DNA from: Mobula hypostoma
Lineage: Eukaryota
Direction: 5' to 3'
NCBI RefSeq assembly: GCF_963921235.1
Contig: NC_086097.1
Span: 103,046,001-103,110,000 of the forward strand
DNA length: 64,000 nt
Made by a program: the position numbers and the translations under genes. The notes under the pieces were generated by a model that saw nothing but the letters and a program-made list of their open reading frames with translations, was not told where the DNA came from and did no database searches. Position 1 is the first letter of the stretch. Every line of letters begins with the position of its first letter. Positions 1,932-56,272 of the stretch are shown here, piece by piece.

Positions 1932-4900
1932 TGTAACATGCTGTAGTGTTTCACTGCTGTGTAACATGCTGTAAGGTTTCACTGATAATGTAATGGTTTC
2001 TCTAGCAGAAATGTTTGGGTTATGACTAGAGATAATGGGGTTTAGAATGCTGTTGTTCTCTCTTGAGTCTGGAAGAGAGATTTTCGCAGTCTTTTGCCAG
2101 GGAGAGATGAGGAGAGAAGAGCGAATGGAGAGAGTTAGTAGACCGCCAGACGGGGTGGACTTGGAGCAAGGGTCCGAAGGGCAGCGACGATCGGAGGAGG
2201 TCAATGGTGGACAACCGGCTTATCAGTGAGCTCCAACATTACACAATAGACTGTCTCATAAGAATGGGCCCTTTTTCTCTTTTTCATTTTCTTTACTAAC
2301 CATATAGTCACAGTAAGAATTATAAAGCTTAATCGTTTAATTGTATATTGTGTACTGTTTGTTATTTCAAGGTACTGATTTGTAACAGGGGACACCGCGC
2401 AGCATCCACCCAAACGAGATTTCTTCAGTTTGACTGGGCCGGGAGCTATCACCCCCTATATTAAGCCGCTAGCTGAAGCGAGAGTTACAATTGTGGGGGC
2501 TACGTTCGGGATTGATTCCGTTGAATGCTGTGTGATTACTCTGAGCAATGAACCAGTGGAGCAGATATTTGTACTCCGGATGAATTGTTAATTCGCCTGT
2601 TAAGTACTGTTGAAGTTGCGATTGTGGGTGGATGTTTGATAAAATGGCTGGTGCAGCTCTCATTTTAATGCAGACCAGCACTGACATAGCTGGGGGTGGA
2701 GATTTCGAAGACGGGGTTCTCTTGTTTTTGAGTAGTGAGGGGAGTGGTTGGATTTGGAATGTCTAATTTGTCCATGTCCCGCAGTGAAGAGTGAGAATTC
2801 TGAGTTAGTGAATCAATAGAAAAATCAAATTCAAAGTCCCAGCTATGGCAGGCTCCGCCTATTCTCTGGAATAATGCCCACCCCTAAAGGGGGGGGGAGT
2901 AGTATGAGACTTGGGTGGAGGGGACCTCTCAGTTAGATGAGTGGCAGTGCTGTGATGATGAAAAGTGACAGAGATTGGTTGAAAGTTTGAATGGGCAGGC
3001 CGCTGATGTTGTGAGAGCTGTTAGGTTGAAATATTCAGTAGCGACAGCTGTCAATTACATACAAGCACTGGGCAATGCTTTTGGTCCGACTGGAAGTCCA
3101 ATGGAGCTCATGGTGGGGTTTCAGAACATGTGTCAGGAGAAGAGGGGAAGCTTTCTGCTTTTATTTTTTGGCTAGAGAGGCAGCTAAATTGCTTGCGGCG
3201 CAGAGGGGTCATTCAGGTGGCTGAGGTGGATCAGTTAAGAATGGACCAGATAGTCAGGGGTGCCCAATCCCAAGACCTGATTGCTTGGAGTCTCCGACAG
3301 TCTTGTAAGACGTGCCCCCCTCCACCTTTTGTTGAGCTGATCAGAGAGGTGCAGGAAGAGGAGAACGCAGTAGAGGCGTGGAAGGCATCAGTCAGCAGGG
3401 TACAGTCCTCGGTAGTAGTCCCCTGTGGTGAAGTGACCACTGATTGCCTACCCCGGGGAGTGGTAGAGGAGATTATGGCAGCATTGAGAACGGAGATATA
3501 TCGGCTGTTATCAGTGGCTGTGACCCCACCTCCCCTATATGATGGAGCTGATGGGGGGAGTGGACTCCCCAAGTGGACGGACAATGCAGAGGGCTGCTGG
3601 CAGCAGGTGTCACACCAGAGGGAGAGTGAGCCCCCGAGTGCCTAAGCAGGGAGAGTTGTTGGGAAAACCTAGAGGAGACCCAGTGAGGGAACGGCTTGGT
3701 GTGTCTGGGGGAACGCATTCCCAGCAATGTACCAAGGAACCCCCAAAAGCGAAAGGCCCAATTCCTGAAGGCTTAGTGGGTCCATGCTCCAGTGTGTCAC
3801 TACGAATAGAGGGTATTTATGCTAAAACCATATTTGACACTGGGTCGCAGGTCACGTACCGTTTGTTTTACAACCGGTATCTGAAGCATTTACCATTGAC
3901 ACCATTCAGGGCACTGAAGATCTGGGGGCTGAGAGCTAGTGATTAGCCATACGATGGTTATTCGTCAGTGAATTTGGAGTTTTTGGGGGCCGATGTGGGA
4001 GACTGTTCCTGTCCGGGGAGTGAAGGCCCTGTGTCAGTTTGCCATCACCGTGAAAGCTGAGGAAAAGGAGGGGCAGGAGTGAGCGGTGGATCAATTGGCT
4101 TCTGATGACGCCATCCCCCAAGTTTAATGTAACCTGACTGCTCTGAAGGCAAATCAGCTGCTGGAATTGAGTTCTGGGGAAGTGACTGCGCTCAGCGAGA
4201 TGATCCGGGCATTGGTACCATTTGGGTGGCGGTCGAAAAGGGAGACATGGCTCAGGCGGAGAGGATGAAACACGTGTCGGTGCCTCCATTCCTATGAGAA
4301 TGGCCTCTGTTGTAGTTGAAGAACCAGATCTTATACCGGGTCACATCACTCCCAGACCAACCCTGGCATTACCAGCTGGTTCTGCCCGAGAAGAAGTATT
4401 GGAGGATGGCGTTGAAATCACTTCATGATGATTCTGGACATTTGGGGGTGGAAGAGGCCTATGGATTGCTCAGAGACCAGTTTTACTGGCCCTGAATGAA
4501 GTCAGAGGTCGAAGAATACTGCAAGTCGTGCCTTCGGTGCATACAGAGGAAGATGCTGCCTATGAGGGCAGCTCCATTGTCCCACTTGCAGAGTGCAGGG
4601 CCTCTGAATCTGGTGTATATAGATTTCTTGTCAATAGAACCCAATGCCAGCAACACGGTGAATGTCTTGGTCATCATAGACCACTACACCAGATATGCTC
4701 AGGCTTTTCCTACCAAGGACCAGAGGGCGTCTACGGTGGCAAAAGTGTTATGGGAGAAGTTGTTTATTTATTATGGCCTTCCCAGGTGAATACATAGTGA
4801 TCAGGGACGGGATTTCGAGAGCAGACTCATCCGTGAGTTACTGGGCATGCTTGGAGTCGAGAAGTCAAGGACCACGCCCTATCACCCACAGGGTGATCTC

Positions 4901-5516: not shown

Positions 5517-6160
5517 CATCTCTATCTAAATGTGCAATTTATGGTAATTTATTATAAAGACTGTATACAACAGGATAGTCAATATAACATAGAAATACAG
5601 TAGTGTCAGCATGAACTAAGCAGTCTGATAGCCTGGTAGAAGAAGCTGTCTCGGAGCTGGTTGGTCCTGGCTTTCATACTGCGGTACCGTCTCTTGGATG
5701 GTAGCAGCTGGAACAGTTTGTGGTTGGGCTGACTCAGGTCCCCAGTGATCCTTCAGGTCCTTTTTACACATCTGTCCTTGTAAGTGTCCTGAATAGCGGG
5801 AAGATCACATCTACAGATGTGCTGGGCTGTCCGCACCACTCTCTGCAGAGTCCTGTGATTGAGGGAAGTTCTCAAACCAGGCAGTGATGCAGCCAGTCAG
5901 AATGCTCTCAATTTTCCCCCTATAGAAAGTTCTTAGGATTTGGGGGCCCATACTAAACTTTTTCAACCATCTGAGGTGAAAGAGACGCTGCTGTGCCTTT
6001 TTCACCACACAGCCGGTATGTACAGACCACGTGAGATTCTCAGTGATGTTTGTGCTGAGGAACTTAAAGCTGTTCACCCTCTCAACCGCAGATCCACTGA
6101 TGTCAGCCTGTCTCCATTCCTCAGTACTCCACAACCAGCTCCTTTGTTTTTGCAACATTG
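5517..6160 (-). mobile_element. Rex1/Babar-like LINE 3' fragment (tail continues at about 1900-1931)
   Basis: ORF 5811..6158: VERVNSFKFL...KKAQQRLFHLR...IESILTGCITAW. This element hosts the Gypsy insertion. Confidence 0.85.
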
Positions 6161-8516: not shown

Positions 8517-8723
<207 letters not shown>

Positions 8724-9088: not shown

Positions 9089-9306
9089 CACAGGCAAGAG
9101 AAAATCTGTGGATGCTGGAAATCCAAGCAACACACACAAAATGCTAGAGGAATTCATCAGGCCAGGCAGCATCTAAGGGGAAAAAGTACAGCTAACCAAT
9201 CAGAACGGACGTCCTACTGAACAGACTTGGCCCGAAGCAGCGACTATACTTTTTTCCATAAATGCTGCCTGGCCTTCTGAGTTCCTTCAGCATTTTATCC
9301 GTGTTG
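9089..9306. mobile_element. Fold-back Penelope-derived element with decayed hammerhead motif
   Basis: Inverted arms and 14-bp TSD CTTAATATTCTGGA (9075-9088 and 9307-9320). Confidence 0.8.
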
Positions 9307-9329
9307 CTTAATATTCTGGATGTGTTTAC

Positions 9330-14694: not shown

Positions 14695-16686
14695 ATAGTC
14701 AGTATAATAGCAAAGACAAGTGGGAAGCCGGAGGAGTGAGAAACTTTTAAAGAGCAACAGAAGGTAACTAAAAAGGCAATACGCAGAGAAAAAATAACGT
14801 ACGAGGGTAAACTAGCCAAGAATATAAAGGAGGATAGTAAAAGCTTCTTTAGGTACGTGAAAAGGAAAAAAAATAGTTAACACCAAAACTGGGCCCTTGA
14901 AGACAGAAACGGGTGAATTTATTATGGGGAACAAGGAAATGGCAGACGAGTTGAACAGGTACTTTGAATCTGTCTTTACTAGGGAAGACACAAACAATCT
15001 CCCAGATATAATAGTGGCCAAAGGACTTAGGGTAATGGATGAACTGAAGGAAATTTATATTAGGCAGGAAGTGGTGTTGGATAGGCTGTTGGGTCTGAAG
15101 ACTGATAAGTCCCCAGGACCTGATGGTCTGCATCCCAGGGTACTTAAGGAGGTGGCTTTAGAAATCGTGGGTGCATTGGTAATCATTTTCCAATGTTCTA
15201 TAGATTCAGGATCAGTTCCTGTGGATTGGAGGGTGGCTAATGTTGTCCCTTTCTTCAAGAAGGGAGGAAGAGAGAAAACAGGGAATTATAGACCGGTTAG
15301 CCTGACGTCGGTGGTGGGAAAGATGCTGGAGTCAATTATAAAAGATGAAATTACGACACATCTGGATAGCAGTAACAGGATTGGTCTGAGTCAGCATGGA
15401 TTTACAAAGGGGAAATCATGCTTGACTAATCTTCTGGAATTTTTTGAGGATGTTACTATGAAAATGGACAAGGGAGAGCCAGTGGATGTAGTGTAACTGG
15501 ACTTTCAGAAAGACTTTGATATAGTCCCACATAGGAGATTAGTGGGCAAAATTAGGGCACATGGTATTGAGGGCAGAGTACTGACATGGATTGAAAATTG
15601 GCTGGCTGATAGAAAACAAAGAGTAGTGATTAATGGGTCCCTTTTGGAATGGCAGGTGGTGACCAGTGGGGTACCGCAGGGTTCAGTGCTGGGACTGCAG
15701 CTGTTTACAATATATATCAATGATTTAGATGAGGGAATTAAAAGCAACATTAGCAAATTTGCTGATGACACAAAGCTGGGTGGCAGTGTGAAATGTGAGG
15801 AGGATGTTATGCGAATACAGGGTGACTTGGACAGGCTGGGTGAGTGGGCAGTTGCATGGCAGATGCAGTTTAATGTGGATAAATGTGAGGTTATCCACTT
15901 TGGTGGTAAGAACAAGAAGGCAGATTATTATCTAAATGGAGTCAAATTAGGAAAAGGGGAAGTACAACGAGATCTAGGTGTTCTTGTACATCAGTCACTG
16001 AAAGCAAGCATGCAAGTACAGCAGGCTGTGAAGAGAGCTAATGGCATGCTGGCCTTCATAACAAGGGGAACTGAGTATAAGAGCAAAGAGGTCCTTCTGC
16101 AGCTGTACAGAGCCTTGGTGAGACCACACCTGGAGTACTGTGTGCAGTTTTGGTCTCCAAATTTGAGGAAGGACATTCTTGTTATTGAGGGAGTGCAGCG
16201 TAGGTTCACAAGGTTAATTCCCGGGATGGCGGGACTGTCATATGTCGAAAGATTGGAGCGACTGGGCTTGTATACTCTGGAATTTAGAAGGCTGAGAGGG
16301 GATCTGATTGAAACATATGAGATTGTTAAGGGATTGGACACGCTGGAGGCAGGAAGCATGTTCCTGCTGATGGGTGAGTCCAGAACCAGAGGCCACAGTG
16401 TAAGAATAAGGGGTAGGCCATTTAGAATGGAGTTGAGGAAAACCTTTCACCCAGAGAGTGGTGGATGTATGGAATGCTCTGCACCTGAAGGCTGTGGAGG
16501 CCAAGTCTCTGGATGCTTTCAAGAAAGAGATGGATAGAGCTCTTAAAGATAGCGGAATCAAAGGTTATAAGGATAAGGCAGGAACTGGATACTGATTGTG
16601 GATGATCAGCCATGATCACAGTGAATGGCGGTGCTGGCTCAAAGGGCGGAATGGCCTACTCTTGCACCTATTGTCTATTGTCTATT
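14695..16686 (+). mobile_element. Young 5'-truncated CR1 LINE (ORF2 RT)
   Basis: ORFs 14897..15496 and 15542..16537 ([27 protein letters not shown]) separated by one TAA; (ATTGTCT)n tail. Splits a Rex1-like 3'UTR. Confidence 0.95.
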
Positions 16687-23127: not shown

Positions 23128-23355
23128 TTCATGAGGAAATCTGCAGATGCTGGAATTTCAAGCAACACACATAAAAGTTGCTGGTGAATGCAGCAGGCCA
23201 GGCAGCATCTCTAGGAAGAGGTACAGTCGATGTTTCGAGCCGAGACCCTTCGACCCTTCGTCCTGACGAATGGTTTCGGCCCGAAACGTCGACTGTACCT
23301 CTTCCTAGAGATGCTGCCTGGCCTGCTGCATTCACCAACAACTTTTGTGTGTGTT
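23128..23355. mobile_element. Fold-back Penelope-derived element with hammerhead motif
   Basis: About 95-bp near-perfect inverted arms and 12-bp TSD GGTGGTAACACA (23116-23127 and 23356-23367). CTGACGA...GAAACGTC core at 23263-23290. Confidence 0.88.
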
Positions 23356-24209
23356 GGTGGTAACACAATAATCAGTCTGCACCAATAAGTAGGATCAAAA
23401 CAGCGTTCGGGGTTCTGTGGCTCTGTGCTACTTTACTTTGCTGCTGTTAAGGTTGAATTCATCCTGAATCTGGTGATGGGACTATCAAACTGATGAATAC
23501 TTCCATCTGTTAACCCACCCAACCTCCCTTCACCACCACTGCATACACATCAGCCACTTTATGTACATACAATCAGTCTATGTATATAAGCTAATGTGTC
23601 TATACAGCCACACTCAAAGATTTACTTGTGCATTGTGGTTTATAGGATTGTTTTTACATTTGTATTTATTGTGTTCTTTATGCTTATTGTACTTTTTATA
23701 CTGCATTGGACCCAAAGTGTCAATCATTTTGTTCTTCTTTGCACTTTGTACTGAACAATGCCAATAAACAATCTTGAATTTAGTTACCTGCAGCAACATC
23801 CCTTTAGTTGTCATAGGAAGCTTGCTTTTCCTTCTTTTTGGTGCTCTATCTGATTAGTACGTGAAGCTGAAACAATATTGCAGCTCCGGTAATGTTCTTT
23901 AGTCAACATACATCGGGTTCTGAGCTGAATGTTAGTGAATCCTGGTGTTGGCATCTTTTTCTATGCCAAGAGACCAGTGTATGTGTCTGTCATAGAAACA
24001 AACATAGATGGGTGGAATATAGGTGGCTATTAAAATTTCTCAGGAGCTGGATTTTAACAGCCAGTACTGTTACATCCAGGCTTTCAAACAGAATTTCAGA
24101 GCTGCAGCAACCTGCTATAAATATAAATGTAGAAGAAATGCCCAGCTCACGGGAAACAATGCCACAAATGTGTAAATATGAAACACTGCATTGAAATGCA
24201 AAGGAAGAC

Positions 24210-26195: not shown

Positions 26196-26252
26196 GCCTG
26201 CGCTAACTAGGTTGATGGTTAAACCTAGATATTTTGGAGTATCTTCATTGTT

Positions 26253-28107
26253 GGACCAGGAGAAAGCCTTCGACAGGATATCGCACACGTACATGGCGGA
26301 CGTGCTCTCCAAAATGGGATTTGGGGAGGGAATCCGGAATGGATCAGACTGCTCTACACAGACATCCGTAGTGCAGTCCAGGTTAACGGGTGGGAAACAG
26401 ACAGCTTCCCCATCAGGTCTGGAGTCAGGCAGGGCTGTCCCCTCTCTCCTGTCTTGTTTGTCTGCTGCATAGAACCCTTTGCGGAAGCCATCAGGAGGGA
26501 TGAGGGCATAAGAGGGGTGACGCTGCCAGGCAGTGGAGGGACCCAAGTGAAAACCTCCCTGTACATGGACGACGTCACCGTCTTCTGCTCTGATCCGAGG
26601 TCAGTTCGCAGGTTGATTGGCACCTGCGAACAGTTCGAGCTAGCGTCGGGGGCCAGGGTCAACCGCACGAAGAGCGAAGCCATGCTCTTCGGCAACTGGC
26701 CCGACCGATCCAGCGTCCCCTTCACCATCAGGTCTGACCACGTGAAGGTGTTGGGGATCTGGTTCGGAGGGGCGGAGGCGTGCAACAAGAACTGGCAGGA
26801 GCGGACTGCCAAGGTGAAACAGAAACTGGGACTGTGGGGAGGGCGCTCCCTGTCGATAACGGGCAAGAACCTGGTCATCAGGTGTGAGGTGCTCTCAGGG
26901 CTGCTGTACTTGGCGCAGGTCTGGCCCGTCCCCCGCTCCTACAGCTCGGAAATCACCCGGGCTGTCTTCAGATTCGTCTGGGGATCCAAGATGGAGCGGG
27001 TGAGACGGACCGCCATGCACAAGTCCCTGGACAACGGGGGCAAGAACGTCCCCAATGTCGCCCTCATCCTGATGGCCAGCTTCGTATGTGGCTGCATCAG
27101 GTTGTGTGTAGAGCCCAGGTATGTGGGCATCAAGTACCACTACGTGCCCAGGTTCTACTTGTCGCCCTGGCTACGAAGGATGGGTCTGGCCCCACTCCCG
27201 CGCAACGCCCCAGTCAGCTGGTCGTTGCCGGCATACCTGTCCTACGTAGCAAAGTTCTTCCAGGAGAACGCCTTTGACCACAGGGCCATCAGGCAGTGGT
27301 TGGCACGTAGTGTCCTGCAGGCACTGCAGGAGAAGGACGTGATGGACACAGTGGGGTGGTTCCCTGAGCAGACTGTCCAGTTCATCTGGCAAAATGCCTC
27401 ATCGCCAGATCTAACCAACAGGCACCAAGACCTCGCCTGGCTGGCGGTGAGAGGGGCCCTCCCAGTCAGAGCCCTCCTGTATGCCCGGAACGTCGTCTCC
27501 ACACCCCACTGCCCATGGGAGGACTGCAGTGAGGAGGAGTCTGTGACCCACCTCTTTGCACACTGCCAGTTCGCAAAGAGGGTGTGGAGGAGGATGGACG
27601 GGCTAGTGTCACGGTTTGTCCCCAGCAGCTGCGTAACAGAGGATTCTCTGATCTACGGGCTGTTCCCGGGGACACACACGGAGACCAACGTCCGGTGCTG
27701 CTGGCAGATCATCAACTCGGTGAAAGATGCTCTTTGGTCGGCCCGAAACTTGGTGATCTACCAGCACATGGAGATGTCCGTGGGAGAATGCTGCCGACTG
27801 GCACATTCTCGACTGCAGGAGTACGTGCTGAGGGACGCACTGAAACTTGGTGCAGCCACCGCAAGGGCCCGGTGGGGAAGGACCACAGTATAGCTTTCTC
27901 CACCTGTGGGAGTGGGAGGGGTCGGAGGGCGGGGAGTATACCCCTCAACAATGAAATGATATGGTAAGCTGAACTACTGGAGTGCCACGTGGGTGGCTAT
28001 AAATACGGATATGTACTGTGTATAATGCAAACGTATGTAAAGGATGAAAAGTTATTGAATGGTTTATTGTATATATTTTTGAATAAAGTATATTTTGAAA
28101 TAAAAAA
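26253..28107 (+). mobile_element. Young 5'-truncated Tx1-like (L1 group) LINE
   Basis: LDQEKAFDR, GVRQGCPLSP, YMDD and zf-RVT-like CPWEDC...HLFAHC; open ORF 26454..27893. AATAAA and A-tail; TSD ATCTTCATTGTT (26241-26252 and 28108-28119). Confidence 0.92.
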
Positions 28108-28272: not shown

Positions 28273-30202
28273 ACACAAAATGCTGGAGGAACTCAACAGG
28301 CCAGGCAGCATCAAGGAAAAGAGTACAGTTAATGTTTCATGCCGAAACCCTTCGGCAGGACTGCAGAGAAAAGCTGAAGAGTAGATTTAAAAGATGTGTG
28401 GAGGGGAGAGCAAAACACAAGCTGATAGTTGAAATCTGGAGGTGGAAGGGTGAAGTAAAGATCTGGGAAGTTGATTGGCGAAAGAGACAGAAAGCCATGG
28501 AAGAAAGAAAAGTGGGGAGGAGAACCAAAGGGAGGCAATGGGTGGGCAAAGAAATAAGGTGAGAGAGGGAAAGGGGGAGGGGAGGCTAGGGGGCATTGTC
28601 AGAGCTTGATTTGGCATGATGTTTCCTCTTGGGATAGAATCTACAACTGGGGTAATAAAGAGGGGTACCACACAAAAAAAACCTAGAAGATCTCAGTAGG
28701 TCAGGTGGCATCCATGGAAATGAATATACACTCAATGTTTTAGTGTAAGACCCTTCATCAGGACTGGAAAGAAAAGAAGCCAGAATAAGAAGCTGAGGGG
28801 AGGGGAAGGTGATAGATGAAGTCAGGTGGGTGGGGGAGAGGGGATGATGTGGGAAGCTGGGTGGGGGGGGTAGTAGGTGGAAAGGTAAAGGGCTAAAGAA
28901 GGAGGAATTTGTTATGGGAGGAGACTGGACTATGGGAGAAAGGAGGAGGAGGTGATAGACAGGCAAGGTGAGGAGAAGAGGCAAGGGGGAGCTAGACTGG
29001 GGAATGGAAGAAGAGGGGAAAGGGAGGGGAGAAAATTATCGGAAGGAGAGGGATCAATGTGCATGTTATCAGACTGGAGGCTATCCAGATGCAATATGAG
29101 CTGTTGCTCCTGTGGTGGCCTCATTGTGGCAGTAGAGGAGACATAGGCTGACATGTCTGAATGGGAGTGGAATTTGGAATTAAAATGCTTGGCCACTGGG
29201 AAATCCTTTTTTCTGCAGTGGAGCAAAAGTACTCTGCAAAGCGGTCCCCAATCTACATTGGGTCTCACCAATGTAGAGGAGGCCGCATTGGGAACAGTAG
29301 AAGACCCTAACAGACATGTTGCCTCACTTGGAAGGAATATTTGGGGTCCTGAATGGAGGTGAATGGGTAGGTGTAGCATGTCTTCCCCCCCCTCCCAAGT
29401 GGAAGAAGTGCTACATCTGCCCATTCACCTCCTCCCTTACCTCCATTCAGAGCCCCAAACAGTCCACCCATGTGAGATAACTCTTCACCTGCAAAGCTGG
29501 TGGGGTTGTCCAGTGTATCCAGCGCTCCTGATGTGACCTCTTCTACGTTCGTGAGACCTGATGTAGATTGGGGGGGCCACTTTGTTGAGCACCTTCACTC
29601 CATCTGCAAAAAGCAGAATTTCCTATGGTTAACCGCTTTAATTCCAATCTGCACTCCCGTCCCAACAAGTCTGCTCCTGGCCTCCTCTACTGCCACGATG
29701 AGGCCACTCTCGACTGGGAGAAGCAACACTTGGAAGCCTTCAACTTGTTGGCACGATTATTGATTTCTCTAACTTCCAGTAATTTCTTCCCTCCCCCTTC
29801 CCTTTTTAAAAAATTTTCCACTCTGTCTCCCCCCATACCTCTTACTTCACCTCACCTGCTTATCACTAATCCCTTGTGCCCCTTCTTCATCCTTTTCTCC
29901 CATGTCCACTTCACTCTCCTATCAGATTCTTCCTTCAGCCTTTAGGTTTTCCACTATCGCCTCCCAGGATCTCTCCCCCACCCACCTGGCTTCACCTATT
30001 ACCTTCTAGCTTGTACTCCTTTCTGCACACACCCCCATCATCTTATTCTACTTTCTTCTTCCTTTCCTTTCCAGTCCTGCTGAAGTGTCTAGATCCAAAA
30101 TATTGACTGTTTATTCCTTTCCATAGATGCTGCCTGACCTGTTGATTTCTCCAGAAATTTGTGTGTTACTCTGGATTTTGAGCATCTGCAGAATTGCTTG
30201 TG
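28273..30202. mobile_element. Penelope-like element array: two tandem minus-strand pseudo-LTRs plus an inverted plus-strand copy
   Basis: Degenerate GIY-YIG endonuclease remnants on both strands (FVEHLHSICKK, FPVAKHFNSKFHSHSDMS, LLYCHDEATL), inversion point near 29390. Three decayed hammerhead motifs. Confidence 0.8.
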
Positions 30203-32034: not shown

Positions 32035-32660
32035 TCAGATTTATTATTATTGACATATGTTGTGAAATTTGTTGTTTTGTGGCAGCAGTATAGTATAAGA
32101 GATTTAAAAAAAATAGTTCAAAGGGGGAATAATGAGGCAGTGTTCATGGACCTTTCAGAAAGCTGACGGTAGAGTGCAAGAGGCTGTTGCTGAAACATCG
32201 AGTGTGGGTCTTCAGCCTCTTGTACCACCTCCCTGATGGTAGTAATGAAAAGAGGGCATATCCTGGGTGGTGAGAATCATTAGTAATTGATGCTGCTTTC
32301 TTGAGGCACCGCCTACTGAAGAAATCCTCTGGTAGGGATGCTCATGCCTGTTATGGAGCTGCTGAGTCAACAGCCCTCGGCAGCTTCTTTTGATCCTATG
32401 CATTTGAAGCCTCCACTCCAGGCAGTAATGCAACCAGTCAGAATGCTCTCCATAGTGCATCTGTAGAAATTTGCCAAAATCTTTGGTGACTTTACCAAAT
32501 CTCGTCAAACTCCTAATGAAGCATAGTCTCTGCTGTGTATTGTGTGATCAATGCAATATTGATCATATTGCATCAATATGATAGGTCCAGGATAGATCTT
32601 CTGAGATTTCAATGCCCAAGAACCCGAAGCTGCTCATCCTTTCCACTACTGACCCCAAAA
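32035..32660 (-). mobile_element. Rex1-like LINE fragment
   Basis: Homologous to the other copies at 20160-20640 and 42590-43100. Confidence 0.75.
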
Positions 32661-32706
32661 TGAGAATTGGTGGGCATCACTTTTCATCAGAATGCAGTGT
32701 GCCTGA

Positions 32707-32904
32707 GCTCCTATCATTTTGGATCTCCCCCTCCAACTTTCAAATCCCTTACTCACTCTTCCTTCAGTTAGTCCTGATGAAGGGTCTCGGCCTGAAACGT
32801 TGACTGCACCTCTTCCTACAGATGCTGCCTGGCCTGCTGCGTTCACCAGCAACTTTTATGTGTGTTGCTTGAATTTCCAGCATCTGCAGAATTCCTGTTG
32901 TTTG
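32707..32904 (+). mobile_element. Penelope-derived pseudo-LTR fragment (young)
   Basis: Same sequence family as the arms at 23128-23355 and 47979-48176. Confidence 0.8.
32769..32806 (+). ncRNA. Minimal type I hammerhead ribozyme motif
   Basis: TAGTC-CTGATGA-AGGGTCTCGGCCT-GAAA-CG-TT-GACTG: stem I, CUGANGA box, stem II, GAAA box, 1-bp stem III and NUH site. Activity untested. Confidence 0.75.
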
Positions 32905-33174
32905 CTGGGTGTCTCCAGTCTTTTTAAATTTCAGGTTTCTAGCATCTGCACTTTTTTGCTCTTCATTTAATGTGTGAGTTTTTCATTTCAAACAAAGTAT
33001 TGGTGAAAATATTATTCCAGAAATCTTCATAGGTGAAACTTTTCACTTCACTTTGAAATTTATGGAAGTGCTTGGACCAGGGATTCTACAAATTGAACAT
33101 GGAGTCCATGGACCCGAATTTGAGAACCCCTGACTTTGACTAGTGCTTCCAGATTAATTGAAACAAGACAATCC

Positions 33175-37546: not shown

Positions 37547-37684
<138 letters not shown>

Positions 37685-39889: not shown

Positions 39890-41470
39890 CAGGTGTCCCC
39901 CACTTTTCGAACGTTCGCTTTACGAAACCTCACTGTTACGAAAGACCTACATTAGTACCCTGTTTTCGCTTTCAGAAGGTGTTTTCACTGTTACGGAAAA
40001 AAATCAGCGTGCGATAAAAGGCAGCGCGCGCCCTGAGCAGCCGCTGTCCCCCAGATTCGGAACGGCATTGCTTAAACACGTGCCCGTGAGCAGCCGTTGG
40101 CAAGATGAGTTCTGAGGTATTGGAAAAGCCTGAAAGAGCTCGTAAGGGTGTTACACTTAGCGTAAAACTAGATGTAATTAAGCGTTTCGATTGTGGTGAA
40201 CGAAGTAAGGACTAAGTGAGTTTGGCTTGTGGAAACTGACGAACATGATGTTGAAGAGGTTTTGGCATCCCATGACCAAGAACTGATAGATGAAGAGCTG
40301 ATGCAATTGGAAGAGGAAAGGATAACAATTGAAACTGAATGCAGTAGTGAACGGACCAAAAGTGAAGTCATCCAGGAACTGAATGTGAAGCAACTGCGTG
40401 AGATTTTCGCTGCAATGATAAAGTACGACTTTAATTTTGAAAGGGTACGTAGGTTTAGGGGATATTTGCAGAATGGTTTGAGTCCTTACAAAGAACTGTA
40501 TGATAGAAAAATGCGCGAGGCTCAGCAGTCAAGCAAGCCTTCCGCATCAGCCACAGCAGATGACGAACCTCGACCTTCGACATCGAGGTGGGCAGTCATA
40601 GGAGAAGATGAGCTGCCTGTTCTAATGGAAACAGACAATGAGATGACACCCCAGTGTCCCACCACCCCGCGATTCGCGGAGAATGCAGCGGTAGCCAGGA
40701 GGCACACAGCACATCTTTAAGAAAAAAGCCGAAATAAACATGCAAATTAATTAGGTACCGCCCTGCACGTAATTGTCAGCTCAACTCGGAGACGACGCAA
40801 TTGGAAATCGGCACTGATCTGGGCCGACAATTACGTGCAGGGCAGTACCTAATTAATTAGCATGTTTATTTTGGCTTTTTCTTAAAGATGTGCTGGATGC
40901 CTCCCAGCTACCACTGCACCCCTGCGCGCTTTGTGGTTCGGTATCTGTTGACGGCCTGGAGGATGGGGGCCACTGCACCACCCAACCTGCGACGACTCAG
41001 CCTAACACACCATCATCTGTGTGCTCGGCGCTGAAGCAATTGCGGTAAGTGATACTACACTGTACATACATTATTTTTACTTTATATAGGCTGTGTATTT
41101 TTATGTGTTACTTGGTATGATTTGGCAGCTTCATAGCTTAAAGGTTACTGGAGAGCGCTTGCGTGAGATTTTCTGCCGACGGCACTTGCGCGAGATTTTC
41201 ACTACGGAGAACAGTGCAGTAATGATTGTGGAAATGTATTTCTACTTTATATAGGCTGTGTGTTTCTCATATCATTCCTGCTTTTACTATATGTTACTGT
41301 TATTTTAGGTTTTATGTGTTATTTGGCATGATTTGGTAGGTTATTTTTGGGTCTGCGAACGCTTACAAATTTTTCCCATATAAATGGTAATTGCTTCTTC
41401 GCTTTATGACATTTCGGGTTACGAACTGTTTCATAGGAACGCTCTACCTTCGGATGGTGGGGGAAACCTG
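39890..41470 (+). mobile_element. Internally deleted Tigger/pogo DNA transposon
   Basis: TA|CAGGTGTCCCCCAC...GTGGGGGAAACCTG|TA. N-terminal RKGVTLSVKLDVIKRFDCGE (CENP-B/psq HTH, about 40105-40215) joined to C-terminal DVEEVLASHDQELIDEELMQLEEE. No DDD domain. Confidence 0.9.
40684..40918. repeat. Long imperfect palindrome inside the Tigger element
   Basis: About 100-bp arms (CAGCACATCTTTAAGAAAAA... versus ...TTTTTCTTAAAGATGTGCTG) around a spacer of about 35 bp. Confidence 0.92.
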
Positions 41471-43239: not shown

Positions 43240-43536
<297 letters not shown>

Positions 43537-43699: not shown

Positions 43700-46600
43700 A
43701 AAAAAAAGAAATTGTTACACCCAAATAAATGAATTGGTTTCTTACAATTTTAAAAGGAAGGTTAATATCAGTTGATACCAAATTATTCAAAGGAAAAAGT
43801 TCACTCTTGTGTAGGTTCAATTTATATCCAGAAAACTGACTAAAACAAGAGAGTAGAGAAAGCACAGAAGGTAACGAAGTTTTGACATTAGAAATGTAAA
43901 GCAATAAGTCATCCACATAAAGTGAAACTTTGTGGATAGTACCCTTCCATAAAATACCAGTGATATCATTAGATCCTTGAAAAGCAGTAGCTAAAGGTTC
44001 TAAGGCCAGGTCAAAGAACAAAGGACTCAAAGGGCAACCTTGTCTGGTTCCACGTTGAAGTTTAAATGGTTTAGAACTCTGAGAATTACTAAGAACCCGA
44101 GCAAAAGGAGATAAGTACAGTAATTTAATCCATTGAATAAAGTTGGACCCAAAATAAAATTTTTCTAAAATTTTAAATAATGCCATTCAACCCGATCAAA
44201 AGCCTTCTCAGCATCTAAGGATATCACACACTCCGATATCTCCTTAGAAGGAAAATAGATAACATTTAATAACTGACGAATATTAAAGTGAGAATATCAA
44301 TTTTTAATAAAACCAGTCTGATCGTCAGAAATGCTAGATGGCAAGATATTTTCCATCCTATGGGCCAGAACTTTAGATAGGATTTTAGCATCAACATTAA
44401 GTAAGGAAATTGGTCTATATGAAGAAAATTCAGTTGGGTTCTTTTTTTTTTAAGGATAAGCGAAATAGAAGCTTCGTAAAAAGATTGCGGCAACCTACCT
44501 GACTTAAAAGAATCTGAAAAAACTGAACATAAATGAGGTATAAGCAAAGAAGAAAAAGCCTTATAAAATTCTCCAGAAAATCCATCAGGACCTGGAGCTT
44601 TCCCTGAATGCAGTGAGCGTACAGCCTCGGCTATTTCTTTGTGAGAAATACATTGATCCAACTGTTTTCGGTTATCAACAGAAAGTGTAGGGATATTTAA
44701 TTGGTCTAAAAATTATTCATTACAGTATTATCTTTAAGAGGATCAGAACTATAAAGTTTAGAATAAAATTCTCTAAAAGTATCATTTATTTCTAAATGAT
44801 CAGTTGTCCCAATACCGTTAGCTTTATAAATTTCTTTAATCTGTCGTTTAGCACTAGAAGTTTTAATTTGGTCAGCCAATAATTTACCTGTTTTATTTCC
44901 ATGAATATAAAATTGACTTTTATCCTTCAGGAGTCGAGTTTCAATAGGATATGTTAATAAAAAATTATATTTAGTTTTAATTTCAACCTGTCTTTTATAT
45001 AAAACAGGACCTGAAGTCAAAGCATATTCTTCATCTAATTGTTTCAGCTGATTGGCTAAACTAATTCTCTCTTTATTAGCGTTTTTCTTAACACTTGCAG
45101 TATAAGAAATGATTTGTCCTCTTAATATATGCTTTAAAGGCGTCCCATATGACAAGGCTAGACGTCTCCTCCACCATATTCTCTTCAAAAAAGAGAGTAA
45201 TTTGCCTCTCCAAGAAATGTAAGAAATCCTTGTCAGATAACAAAGTTAAATTACGATGCCAGAATCTGTTTGAGGAAAACCAGGAAGATTTATGGATAAA
45301 AGCATAGGAGCATGGTCAGAAATAGCAATCTCTTTGTATTCACAAGATCAAACTAATGGAATCATTTGGTTATCAATAAAAAAAAGTCAATTCTGGAATA
45401 CGTATGATGAACATGAGAGGAAAACGAGTATTCACTATCTGCTGGGTGTAAGAAATGCCATATATCAACAATCCCACATTTCTTTACAAATGAATGAATA
45501 AACAAGGCTGATTTATTAAATGTGGCTGATTTAAAAGAAGAGCGATCTGAACCTGGATCTAACCAGCAATTAAAGTCTCCTGCCATCACCAATGAGTACA
45601 AACTCAGATCAGGCAGAAATGAAAAAGAAAATGCTCAAAGAATCCTGGATCGTCTATATTTGGAGCATAAACATTAGCAAATACTAACAATTTACTCTGT
45701 ACTTTCCCTGATACTATAACAAATTGCCCATTAGTATCAGAATCAACCTTGTGTTGAACAAAGGGAACTGTATTTTCTATAAAAATCAAAACTCCTCTAG
45801 ATTTGGCCTGAAAACAAGAATGAAAGTGCAATTCTCTCCATCGGCTGAAAAGGCGTGAATTATCAGAATTGCGTTTCTTGTTTAAAAAAAATAATTTTTT
45901 ATGTTTTTTAATATAGGCAAATATCTTATTTCGTTTCAAAGGGTAATTTAATTTAATCCTTTCAAGTTAAGACTAAGTAAATTAATACTATAATCCATGT
46001 TATTATTATTTAAAAGAAAAGTTAAAAGGATAATCCTTAAGAAGATTAATAAAACTAAGCAATGACCTATGAGATAAGGAAACCAAACAACAGGTTTGAC
46101 TAAGAATCCCAAACAGCTTCCAAGAAAAAAAACCCAAACACCTTCCCCGCTCCCAAAGAGAGTAAGTCGACCAAAGAAAGTTGATGCCTATAACTAATAA
46201 CAACATCCTCCCAAAAATCCTGCTGGCTTAGCTCCAAAGAAATTTCAAAGTTAGAAATATTCCAACCTAGTCAGAACGACAGATAATAAATACACAGTTT
46301 ATTCTGATATCAAGAACTCTAGAAAAGTAAGTATAATATAAAATAATATGGAACACAATATTAGCTCATTAAAATCTTATTCTCAAAGTAAAACCTTGGA
46401 AGGTTCAAAAAGAGAATTGACTGCAAGATTCACCAGAGGCAAAACACACAATTACTCATGTAAGTTTTTGTTTAACAGCTGTTACATGACACTTTTAAAC
46501 TTGGCAGACAAAGTATTAGCACATTAAAGTCTTATTCCCAAAATAAAGCTTTAAAAAGTTCAAAAAGAAAGAGTTAAGTACAAAGTTTAGCAAAGGTAAA

Positions 46601-47978: not shown

Positions 47979-48176
47979 AAACAACAGGAATTCTGCAGAT
48001 GTTGGAAATTCAAGCAACACACATCAAAGTTGCTGGTGAACGCAGCAGGCCAGGCAGCATCTCTAGGAAGAGGTGCAGTCAACGTAACGCAGCAGGCCAG
48101 GCAGCATCTCTAGGTAGTCCTGATGAAGGGTCTCGGTCTGAAACGTCGACTGCTGCGTTCACCAGCAATTTTGATG
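47979..48176. mobile_element. Fold-back Penelope-derived element nested in CR1
   Basis: 14-bp TSD AAGAAGGTAAAGGT (47965-47978 and 48177-48190), inverted arms and an internal duplication of about 30 bp. Confidence 0.88.
48115..48152 (+). ncRNA. Minimal type I hammerhead ribozyme motif
   Basis: TAGTC-CTGATGA-AGGGTCTCGGTCT-GAAA-CG-TC-GACTG with a GUC cleavage triplet. Activity untested. Confidence 0.75.
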
Positions 48177-53738: not shown

Positions 53739-53867
<129 letters not shown>

Positions 53868-54040: not shown

Positions 54041-54212
54041 ATAGAAAAAAAATGAAGATCTCAATCTATATTGAAAGAGTGGATTCATCAGCAATGGAGT
54101 GAACGTCAGAGGGATGTCATTTCATAGGTACAAATATTCCAAAATCCGAAACACTTCTGGCCTCAAGCATTTCAGATAAGGGGTGCTCAACCTGTATTTT
54201 TCAGAAAGATTC
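54041..54212 (-). repeat. Inverted duplicate of 55292-55463
   Basis: 172 bp, with one mismatch by manual alignment. Confidence 0.95.
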
Positions 54213-55130: not shown

Positions 55131-55309
55131 TCCATTCAGTCCCATTTACAATAGGCTATTACACAGTCTTTGATCTGGCTATTCTTTTCGGTAGTGGAAT
55201 AAAAGGTTTTGTGGATATTAACTTTTGAAATTAACCAAACTTTTGATGTTGAAACACAGGCCTGTATAATAACTCAGTGAACTGTGGTTGGGAATCTTTT
55301 TGAAAAATA

Positions 55310-56272
55310 CAGGTTGAGCACCCCTTATCTGAAATGCTTGAGGCCAGAAGTGTTTCGGATTTTGGAATATTTGTACCTATGAAATGACATCCCTCTGACG
55401 TTCACTCCATTGCTGATGAATCCACTCTTTCAATATAGATTGAGATCTTCATTTTTTTTCTATTTTTCATTAACTTCTGTTCATTACTTTCAGCATAGAA
55501 ATTTGAATTGTTTGCCTTTCTGTTACTTCAGGTTGTTCCAACGCCATACTCCTCCGTCAGATACCTCACACTTACACCGCTGTCAAGTTTTTCCAATAGC
55601 TTGACTTTGTGTTTATAGATAACCATAAATGCTTACTCTTTTTAAAAAAAATTTCACAATTACCCATAGAGGTAATTACTGGCCTTTCTGACATATTGCA
55701 CAGAGCAGAGAGCAAGTGGTCACATGGGTAATCTCGCTGAGTTATTTATTTGAGACACAGCACAGAATCGACCTTTTGGGCCGTGCTGCCCAGCGGTCGC
55801 CTCGATTTACAACCATAAGACATAGGAGCAGAATTAGGCCTTTCAGCACATTGAGTCTGCTCCGCCATTCCAGCCTAACCCTTGCCTAAACACTGGACAA
55901 TCTACAATACCCAATTAACCTACCAGCCAGTATGTCTTTGGACTGTGGTAGGACACTGGAGCACCTGGAGGAAACCCATGAGGTCACTGGGAGAACATAC
56001 AAACTCCTTACAAGGTAGTGTCAGGATGGTAATGCATGAAGGTATGTCTATGATGATTACTGAGAGCAAACTGGCACCAACAGGGTAGCACTCTGGGCAT
56101 ATGAGGTCACTTCTCAAAACTGTCTGTGGTGCGCAGATACCTGTGCTTTGCCTGGGAACCTTCCCAGCACCTTGTAGAATTTTCGATTTTTGGCATCATG
56201 TCAGTGCTCAAAAAAAAAACAACAAATTGGATTTTGGACATTTTTGTGTTTTCGCATAAGGGTTATCTCTTG
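55310..56272. mobile_element. Tigger4/Zombi-like non-autonomous DNA transposon with nested SINE pieces (about 55740-56015)
   Basis: TA|CAGGTTGAGCACCCCTTATCTGAAATGCTTG left end and decayed right end (TGGCATCATGTCAGTGCTCAAAAA...ATAAGGG). Confidence 0.7.

What the first reader, a model, noticed from the sequence alone, without database searches (positions are those of the whole stretch)
32769..32806. Intact minimal hammerhead ribozyme core on the TTBK2 pre-mRNA strand
Seen: TAGTC CTGATGA AGGGTCTCGGCCT GAAA CG TT GACTG, containing both catalytic boxes, a pairing stem I (AGTC/GACT), a stem II and an NUH site. Known: Penelope-like retroelements carry such minimal type I hammerheads with a vestigial palindromic stem III, which cleave mainly as dimers. 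Inference: this copy is transcribed within the 29-kb intron and could cleave only if it pairs with a sister copy such as 23260-23293 or 48115-48152.
Basis: partly seen in the sequence, partly recalled or inferred. Interest (0 to 1): 0.75.

Follow-up and report, generated by a model that had tools for sequence, protein, structure and literature searches.

The report
Transposon hammerhead stranded in TTBK2 intron
This is the self-cutting-RNA motif from the tail of a Penelope-type jumping gene, one of tens of thousands of near-identical copies in this genome, and this slightly mutated copy likely sits inactive in a TTBK2 intron by chance.

Summary
The motif is there as described, on the sense strand of a 28.9-kb TTBK2 intron. 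It belongs to a 198-bp, 5'-truncated end (32707-32904) of a Penelope-like retrotransposon. Full-length relatives carry RT, a Neptune-type zinc linker, GIY-YIG and a hammerhead in each terminal repeat 3.5 kb apart. The genome holds 32,886 exact copies of the dominant 36-mer and 48,611 of a degenerate one, so about one copy per strand per window is expected. This copy is not pristine: two CpG changes turn the family's GUC cut site into GUU. The hammerhead is conserved between subfamilies (34 of 37 bases, flanks about half), but CpG sites in inserted copies decay as fast inside it as outside. The proposed dimer partners are poor: 23258 is predicted to be locked in its own 95-bp fold-back and has damaged stems, and 48115 lies two exons downstream. 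Cleavage and expression could not be tested. Verdict: a known kind of element, likely an inert passenger. The scan has noted the same kind in introns of other genomes.

The parts
32707..32904 (+). 5'-truncated end (pseudo-LTR plus tail) of a Penelope-like retrotransposon, young subfamily
   Evidence: The best genomic relative matches these limits at 96%. Longer copies continue upstream into the GIY-YIG and RT frame.
32769..32806 (+). Minimal type I hammerhead motif; predicted cut at 32801/32802
   Evidence: Sequence; descriptor hit. Cleavage untested.
32774..32780 (+). CUGANGA box; N7 (32778) is T where 29 of 33 young copies have C
32781..32793 (+). Unpaired A plus stem II; pair 10.1-11.1 is G.U, as in the dominant subfamily, not the usual G-C
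32794..32801 (+). GAAA box, ACGU palindrome (vestigial stem III) and GUU triplet; H17 is C in 33 of 33 sampled young copies
   Evidence: about 85% C by contig depth in run X1
32869..32904 (+). Optional tail of about 35 nt, the start of the next tandem unit's leader
   Evidence: 3' ends of 57 young copies fall at 32866-32875 (24) or 32896-32908 (27), none between, 6 earlier. The same bases precede the ORF in L123.
32630..32706 (+). Likely left half of an older, decayed pseudo-LTR that the young copy interrupted; its hammerhead is destroyed
   Evidence: Local alignment score 30; 0 of 500 shuffles reach it, best 28.5. Limits were chosen by eye.
32905..32956 (+). Likely right half of the same older pseudo-LTR
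   Evidence: Score 39; 0 of 500 shuffles reach it, best 34.
23134..23356 (.). Fold-back insertion of the same family; contains the proposed sister 23258-23295, which has a broken 10.1 pair and a 3-bp stem I
47979..48176 (.). Scrambled inverted insertion of the same family; contains the proposed sister 48115-48152
8568..8715 (+). TTBK2 kinase exon upstream of the host intron
37602..37675 (+). TTBK2 kinase exon downstream of the host intron
   Evidence: the next two exons, 43297-43437 and 53739-53843, match PDB TTBK2

Best explanation
The motif is the terminal-repeat hammerhead of a Penelope-like retrotransposon, carried into a TTBK2 intron on a 198-bp truncated copy that is likely an inert, decaying passenger. 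In full-length elements the same motif sits in both terminal repeats, 3.5 kb apart and about 140 nt upstream of the probable start codon. There it likely processes the element's own tandem RNA, as a dimer or with help from the element's protein (inferred from the literature). Reverse transcription likely began 103 nt downstream of the cut site, copied through an uncut or re-ligated hammerhead and stopped 95 nt upstream of it. Two CpG transitions likely followed insertion. In the pre-mRNA the copy has no stem III as a monomer and no usable partner, so it is predicted not to cut at a rate that matters.
For: Element identity: upstream homology into RT and GIY-YIG frames in genomic copies. L123 shows repeat-ORF-repeat with identical hammerheads at 2298 and 5809. 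RVT_1 E=6.9e-5 and GIY-YIG E=5e-4. DKG, CX4CXXC and CCHH motifs are present. 3' ends are bimodal. Abundance: 48,611, 32,886 and 193 exact matches; 25 descriptor hits in 1.2 Mb of arbitrary genome, about 72,000 genome-wide and 0.67 per strand per 64 kb. Decay: in 33 copies chosen on flanks only, CpG bases changed 28 of 231 in the non-core hammerhead and 8 of 66 in flanks (both 12.1%); core non-CpG 6 of 330 against flank 78 of 2607, p=0.29; 26 of 33 cores intact. No sense-strand depletion in the TTBK2 span seen: 9 sense and 10 antisense pieces. Literature: the single min-HHR tested showed no cleavage and dimers little (PMC4209133); the anole element's hammerhead cut only with its protein, and no RNA-seq ends mapped to the cut site (PMC11167929).
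Against: All invariant core bases are present, and GUU is listed among cleavable triplets (PMC3138052 passage). Non-core, non-CpG hammerhead positions vary less than flanks among copies (7 of 627 against 78 of 2607); I attribute this to subfamily variants in the flanks but did not separate it from selection on inserted copies. Both Pfam hits are below their curated cut-offs, and 4 of 5 and 1 of 3 proteins gave none. The strand count is from one gene; among boxes-intact motifs in that span it was 5 sense and 2 antisense. Energy models omit the tertiary core and score even the dominant-type dimer as unfavourable, so they say little about activity.
Confidence: 0.88

Rival explanations
1. The copy is a latent ribozyme that cuts TTBK2 pre-mRNA when the element is expressed, either refolded by the element's protein or paired in trans with abundant element RNA.
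For: Core intact. The anole hammerhead is protein-assisted (PMC11167929). The copy keeps 103 nt downstream of the cut, reaching both inferred reverse-transcription start sites. Tens of thousands of potential partners exist.
Against: GUU site and G.U at 10.1-11.1. In the anole element, RNA beyond the initiation site was needed for extension activity, and this copy ends at that site. Of 8 long-frame loci fetched, none showed one frame through RT, linker and endonuclease. No sense depletion in this gene.
Confidence: 0.06
2. One reading: the copy cuts as a dimer with the sister at 23258 or 48115 in the same pre-mRNA.
For: All three carry the ACGU palindrome on the sense strand, and 23258 is in the same intron. 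Dimers of min-HHRs show low activity in vitro.
Against: The partner must supply the enzyme strand. 23258 has U at 10.1 and a 3-bp stem I and is predicted to be paired with its own inverted arm (-172 kcal/mol). 48115 has a weak stem II and is two exons downstream. The partners lie 9.5 and 15 kb away. Antisense copies are predicted to give duplexes of -218 and -205 kcal/mol. The active heterodimer folds score -5.0 and -2.3 against minima of -20.2 and -16.2 (weak evidence).
Confidence: 0.03
3. A domesticated intronic ribozyme kept by the host to tune TTBK2 RNA, like the RECK intronic hammerhead of birds and mammals.
For: Sense orientation. A DNA contig of a second organism starts 25 bases inside the element and runs through the 3' flank (321 bases, 6 differences), suggesting a shared insertion; this is short of the tool's 31-base bridging rule.
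Against: Young insertion (96% to the best paralog). Its two private changes both fall inside the hammerhead, one at the cut site. No extended helices. A dominant-type copy lies in the previous intron too.
Confidence: 0.02

Closest known systems
Minimal hammerheads (min-HHR) in pLTRs of metazoan Penelope-like elements; Cervera and De la Pena 2014, PMC4209133 (parts 1-2 of 4 read; 2 supplement files searched, 1 not searchable)
   Same: Type I layout, short helix I, unpaired base after A9, palindromic 15.2-16.2 without loop 3, one motif per terminal repeat, most copies solitary on truncated elements.
   Different: Helix II is 4 bp, not the 7-8 bp of the Schistosoma families. The dominant subfamily has G.U at 10.1-11.1. 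Copy number (at least 48,611) exceeds the 4,000 in coelacanth and 9,000 in Xenopus given there, and the family is homogeneous.
Neptune-clade endonuclease-bearing Penelope-like elements (features from bioRxiv 2021.04.23.441226, passages read)
   Same: RT then GIY-YIG, DKG motif, CX2-5CXXC linker, CCHH motif, pLTRs, inverted 5'-truncated arms, 30-40-bp tail.
   Different: Clade assigned by motifs only; no tree built. The window copy is non-coding.
Poseidon element of the green anole (PAc); Frangieh et al. 2024, PMC11167929 (parts 1-2 of 4 read)
   Same: Two reverse-transcription start sites giving a tail; copies retain sequence on both sides of the cut site; insertion into a pLTR is possible.
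   Different: In PAc the ORF starts inside the hammerhead; here the probable start codon is about 140 nt past the cut. Penelope/Poseidon elements lack the zinc linker.
Animal non-LTR retrozymes (PMC7229834 passages; bioRxiv 2026.07.22.740005 part 1 and passages)
   Same: Type I hammerhead with weak helix III, very high copy number (126,247 motifs in axolotl), frequent intronic copies (about 43% in Xenopus).
   Different: Retrozymes are non-coding tandem units; this is a solitary truncated end of a coding element.
Domesticated intronic hammerheads of amniotes (RECK, CTCL/C10orf118, DTNB; PMC6155905 and PMC10761166 passages)
   Same: Type I motif in an intron of a host gene.
   Different: Those are conserved across classes and active as monomers; this is a young repeat copy with a mutated cut site.

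Membership tests
PLE minimal hammerhead (min-HHR) | Core boxes CUGANGA and GAAA, and a U-H cleavage site | tested here: met
   32774-32780, 32794-32797, 32800-32801
PLE minimal hammerhead (min-HHR) | Type I with short helix I (4-5 bp) and a paired helix II after one unpaired base | tested here: met
   5 pairs including U.G; A32781 unpaired; 4-pair helix II
PLE minimal hammerhead (min-HHR) | Palindromic 15.2-16.2, helix III absent or vestigial | tested here: met
   ACGU at 32797-32800
PLE minimal hammerhead (min-HHR) | G10.1-C11.1 pair (typical of the hits in PMC4209133, not part of its descriptor) | tested here: not met
   G.U here and in 82 of the first 100 listed matches; G-C in the older subfamily. 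I treat it as typical, not defining; it lowers the odds of activity.
PLE minimal hammerhead (min-HHR) | Lies in the terminal repeats of a Penelope-like element | tested here: met
   L123: both repeats, 3,511 bp apart, around a 934-codon frame
PLE minimal hammerhead (min-HHR) | Self-cleavage as dimer or with protein | not testable with these tools
   Needs bench work; contigs cannot show RNA ends
Endonuclease-bearing PLE, Neptune clade | RT followed by C-terminal GIY-YIG endonuclease | tested here: met
   RVT_1 E=6.9e-5 and GIY-YIG E=5e-4, both under curated cut-offs; YIDD and VIY...YIG motifs; one frame spans both in L125
Endonuclease-bearing PLE, Neptune clade | DKG motif, CX2-5CXXC linker, CCHH motif | tested here: met
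   KPADKGG; CKRNKCYTC and C..C/H/H in L123 and L124
Endonuclease-bearing PLE, Neptune clade | pLTRs, inverted truncated arms, 30-40-bp tail | tested here: met
Endonuclease-bearing PLE, Neptune clade | RT groups with Neptune rather than Nematis in a tree | not tested
   No reference set fetched
Non-LTR retrozyme | Non-coding tandem units, each with a hammerhead | tested here: not met
   Single copy; longer relatives extend into an ORF
Domesticated intronic hammerhead (RECK type) | Locus-specific conservation across distant species | tested here: inconclusive
   Only one other organism, with a flank about 98% alike and a junction piece too short to count
Domesticated intronic hammerhead (RECK type) | Stable helix III allowing monomer activity | tested here: not met
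   No helix III possible in the monomer

The most novel reading that the evidence does not exclude
Tens of thousands of sense-strand intronic copies, this one included, form a genome-wide pool of latent ribozymes that cut host pre-mRNAs only when the Penelope element's protein or RNA is present, coupling transposon activity to host RNA breakage.
Probability: 0.05. Interest if true: 0.65.

Novelty: new member of a known kind. Interest (0 to 1): 0.13.

Why it matters
This locus matters little: it is one of at least 48,611 near-identical motifs and less intact than most. The family is more useful than the locus. A young, homogeneous set this large would allow a strong test of an open question, whether Penelope hammerheads cut in vivo, by comparing sense and antisense intronic copies with intact and broken cores.

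Tried and rejected
Rfam: no hammerhead family at gathering or at E up to 10. Folding z-score: the 38-mer folds no better than shuffles (z=-0.45, 59 of 200 as good). RNA: no RNA holder listed. Four RNA-guess runs laid nothing on the 37602 exon, and two had no cover of the unique flank 32967-33101; these blanks are no evidence either way. An empty site in the second organism was not among the 15 joints shown (229 more hidden). Target-site duplication: no shared word over 5 bases at the junctions. Tandem locus L007/L008 proved to be an element embedded in satellite DNA, not a head-to-tail element. 5' ends made by the ribozyme: none of 56 copies begins within 5 nt of the cut site. Dimer energies cannot rank activity; the dominant-type rows used a wrong offset and are superseded. 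Paper searches with no hit: hammerhead+Penelope+Neptune+shark, hammerhead ribozyme+cartilaginous fish+Penelope, rates for GUU or G10.1 changes. Searches gave listings only, apart from the passages cited. No tree and no homolog search for taxonomy was run.

Full report
Observation. The 38 bases are present as written and form a minimal type I hammerhead layout with the cut at 32801/32802. The boxes alone are within chance, but a descriptor with boxes and stems hits the window twice and 0 of 30 shuffles. Rfam does not match it. TTBK2 exons lie on + at 8568-8715, 37602-37675, 43297-43437 and 53739-53843; the last two match PDB TTBK2 better than TTBK1. The motif is on the sense strand of the 28,886-nt intron 8716-37601. 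The organism is a vertebrate with a 3.48-Gb assembly. The repeats look like those of cartilaginous fishes, but that is recalled and untested.

What it is. The motif lies in a repeat spanning 32707-32904; the best of 41 listed genomic matches other than itself is 96% alike. Many of the 30 loci fetched continue upstream into frames with RT and GIY-YIG motifs. Of 8 long-frame loci fetched, L123 shows a complete element: a terminal repeat with hammerhead at 2298, a 934-codon frame, and a second repeat with an identical hammerhead at 5809. Pfam gives RVT_1 E=6.9e-5 and GIY-YIG E=5e-4, both under the curated cut-offs. DKG, CX4CXXC and CCHH motifs fit the Neptune clade as described in bioRxiv 2021.04.23.441226 (passages). 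3' ends of 57 young copies fall in two groups about 35 nt apart (24 and 27 copies, 6 shorter), the tail signature of these elements (PMC11167929). The window copy has the long end. It appears to have landed inside an older, decayed repeat of the same kind.

How common. Exact matches in the genome: 48,611 to a degenerate 34-mer, 32,886 to the dominant 36-mer, 193 to this copy's 36-mer; reversed controls gave 0. In 120 arbitrary 10-kb stretches there were 157 BLAST pieces and 25 descriptor hits, about 72,000 genome-wide and 0.67 per strand per 64 kb. A sense-strand motif in a window-long gene is therefore expected.

State of this copy. It differs from the dominant motif at two CpG sites: N7 C>T, which is neutral by the core consensus, and H17 C>T, which makes the triplet GUU. 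H17 was C in 33 of 33 young copies chosen on flanks only, out of 112 anchor hits. GUU is listed as cleavable (PMC3138052 passage); that it is slower than GUC is recalled. Pair 10.1-11.1 is G.U, as in 82 of the first 100 listed matches, whereas PMC4209133 calls G10.1-C11.1 highly conserved.

Selection. Between old (54 copies) and young (57 copies) subfamilies the hammerhead majority keeps 34 of 37 bases, against 18 of 33 in the 5' flank and 7 of 16 in the 3' spacer (23 copies unclassified). Hundreds of contigs match over 32770-32806 and diverge on both sides. So source elements kept the motif. Among inserted copies, CpG bases decay at 12.1% both inside (28 of 231) and outside (8 of 66); core non-CpG changes are 6 of 330 against 78 of 2607 (p=0.29), after dropping columns that vary in over 25% of copies. 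Against my reading, non-core hammerhead positions vary less (7 of 627); minor subfamily variants inflate the flank figure, and I did not separate the two. Across the TTBK2 span seen, pieces were 9 sense and 10 antisense, and boxes-intact motifs 5 and 2: no depletion, in one gene only.

Mechanism. In the element, the motif likely processes tandem element RNA as a dimer or with protein help. The single min-HHR tested did not cut and dimers cut little; the anole motif cut only with its protein, was not needed for insertion in vitro, and left no ends in RNA-seq. Genomic copies here keep 67-103 nt beyond the cut site and none of 56 starts within 5 nt of it, so templates were uncut or re-ligated (inferred). 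For the intronic copy, the monomer cannot form stem III, and in 141 nt of context the CUGAUGA box is predicted to pair with upstream bases. The sister at 23258 has damaged stems and is predicted to fold back on its own inverted arm at -172 kcal/mol. The sister at 48115 is two exons away with a weak stem II. Antisense copies are predicted to pair with this copy at -218 and -205 kcal/mol. Dimer energies are unfavourable for all pairs, including the dominant type, so they carry little weight. Expression and cleavage were not observable with the runs on hand.

Comparison and novelty. It works like, and sits where, the min-HHRs of PMC4209133 do, with a wobble at 10.1-11.1. It is not a retrozyme and fails the monomer test for RECK-type domesticated hammerheads. 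I found no paper on this family (empty; listings only); bioRxiv 2026.07.22.740005 reports retrozymes in one cartilaginous fish (passages), and its supplements and one supplement of PMC4209133 could not be seen. The scan has noted the same kind in introns of other genomes, and 1,408 of 2,678 notes in this genome fit the word hammerhead.

Verdict. Real motif, known kind, ordinary locus: interest 0.13. The latent-pool reading has about 5% odds and is best tested by a genome-wide strand count.

Noticed in passing
family-wide; window 32760-32783: 5' breakpoints cluster 20-35 nt upstream of the cut site (15 of 56 hits; some are two arms of one event, about half next to an inverted arm). This coincides with a predicted hairpin that sequesters the CUGA box, a possible snap-back site for the fold-back insertions.
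   Followed up: partly
family-wide; window 32793: The most prolific subfamily fixed U at 11.1 (32,886 exact copies), replacing the usual G10.1-C11.1 pair, which suggests relaxed demand on cleavage.
   Followed up: partly
G000:C1, 5,836 bases before the window start (+ strand): A dominant-type GUC copy lies on the sense strand of the previous TTBK2 intron, more intact than the one reported.
   Followed up: no
window 32630-32706 and 32905-32956: The young copy interrupts an older decayed terminal repeat of the same kind, with no target-site duplication.
   Followed up: partly
window 23134-23356, 9095-9309, 28273-30198, 40684-40918, 54041-54212 with 55292-55463: Several inverted-repeat insertions inside TTBK2 introns would form long double-stranded RNA; possible editing substrates.
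   Followed up: no
L123, L124, L126, L127, L128, L129, L130: The longest frame in 7 of 8 long copies leaves the reading frame just before the zinc linker, near a pyrimidine-rich run; L125 reaches the endonuclease but reads the linker out of frame.
   Followed up: no
L031-L032 (G000:C12:103128001-103146000): Three inverted pairs of element ends sit 3.2-3.6 kb apart inside a satellite array, apparently amplified with it.
   Followed up: no
window 14861-16534 (+), 26229-27890 (+), 43701-45245 (-), 3025-3943 (+): Other retroelement-like frames in TTBK2 introns; LINE-like and gag-like by eye, recalled and not searched.
   Followed up: no
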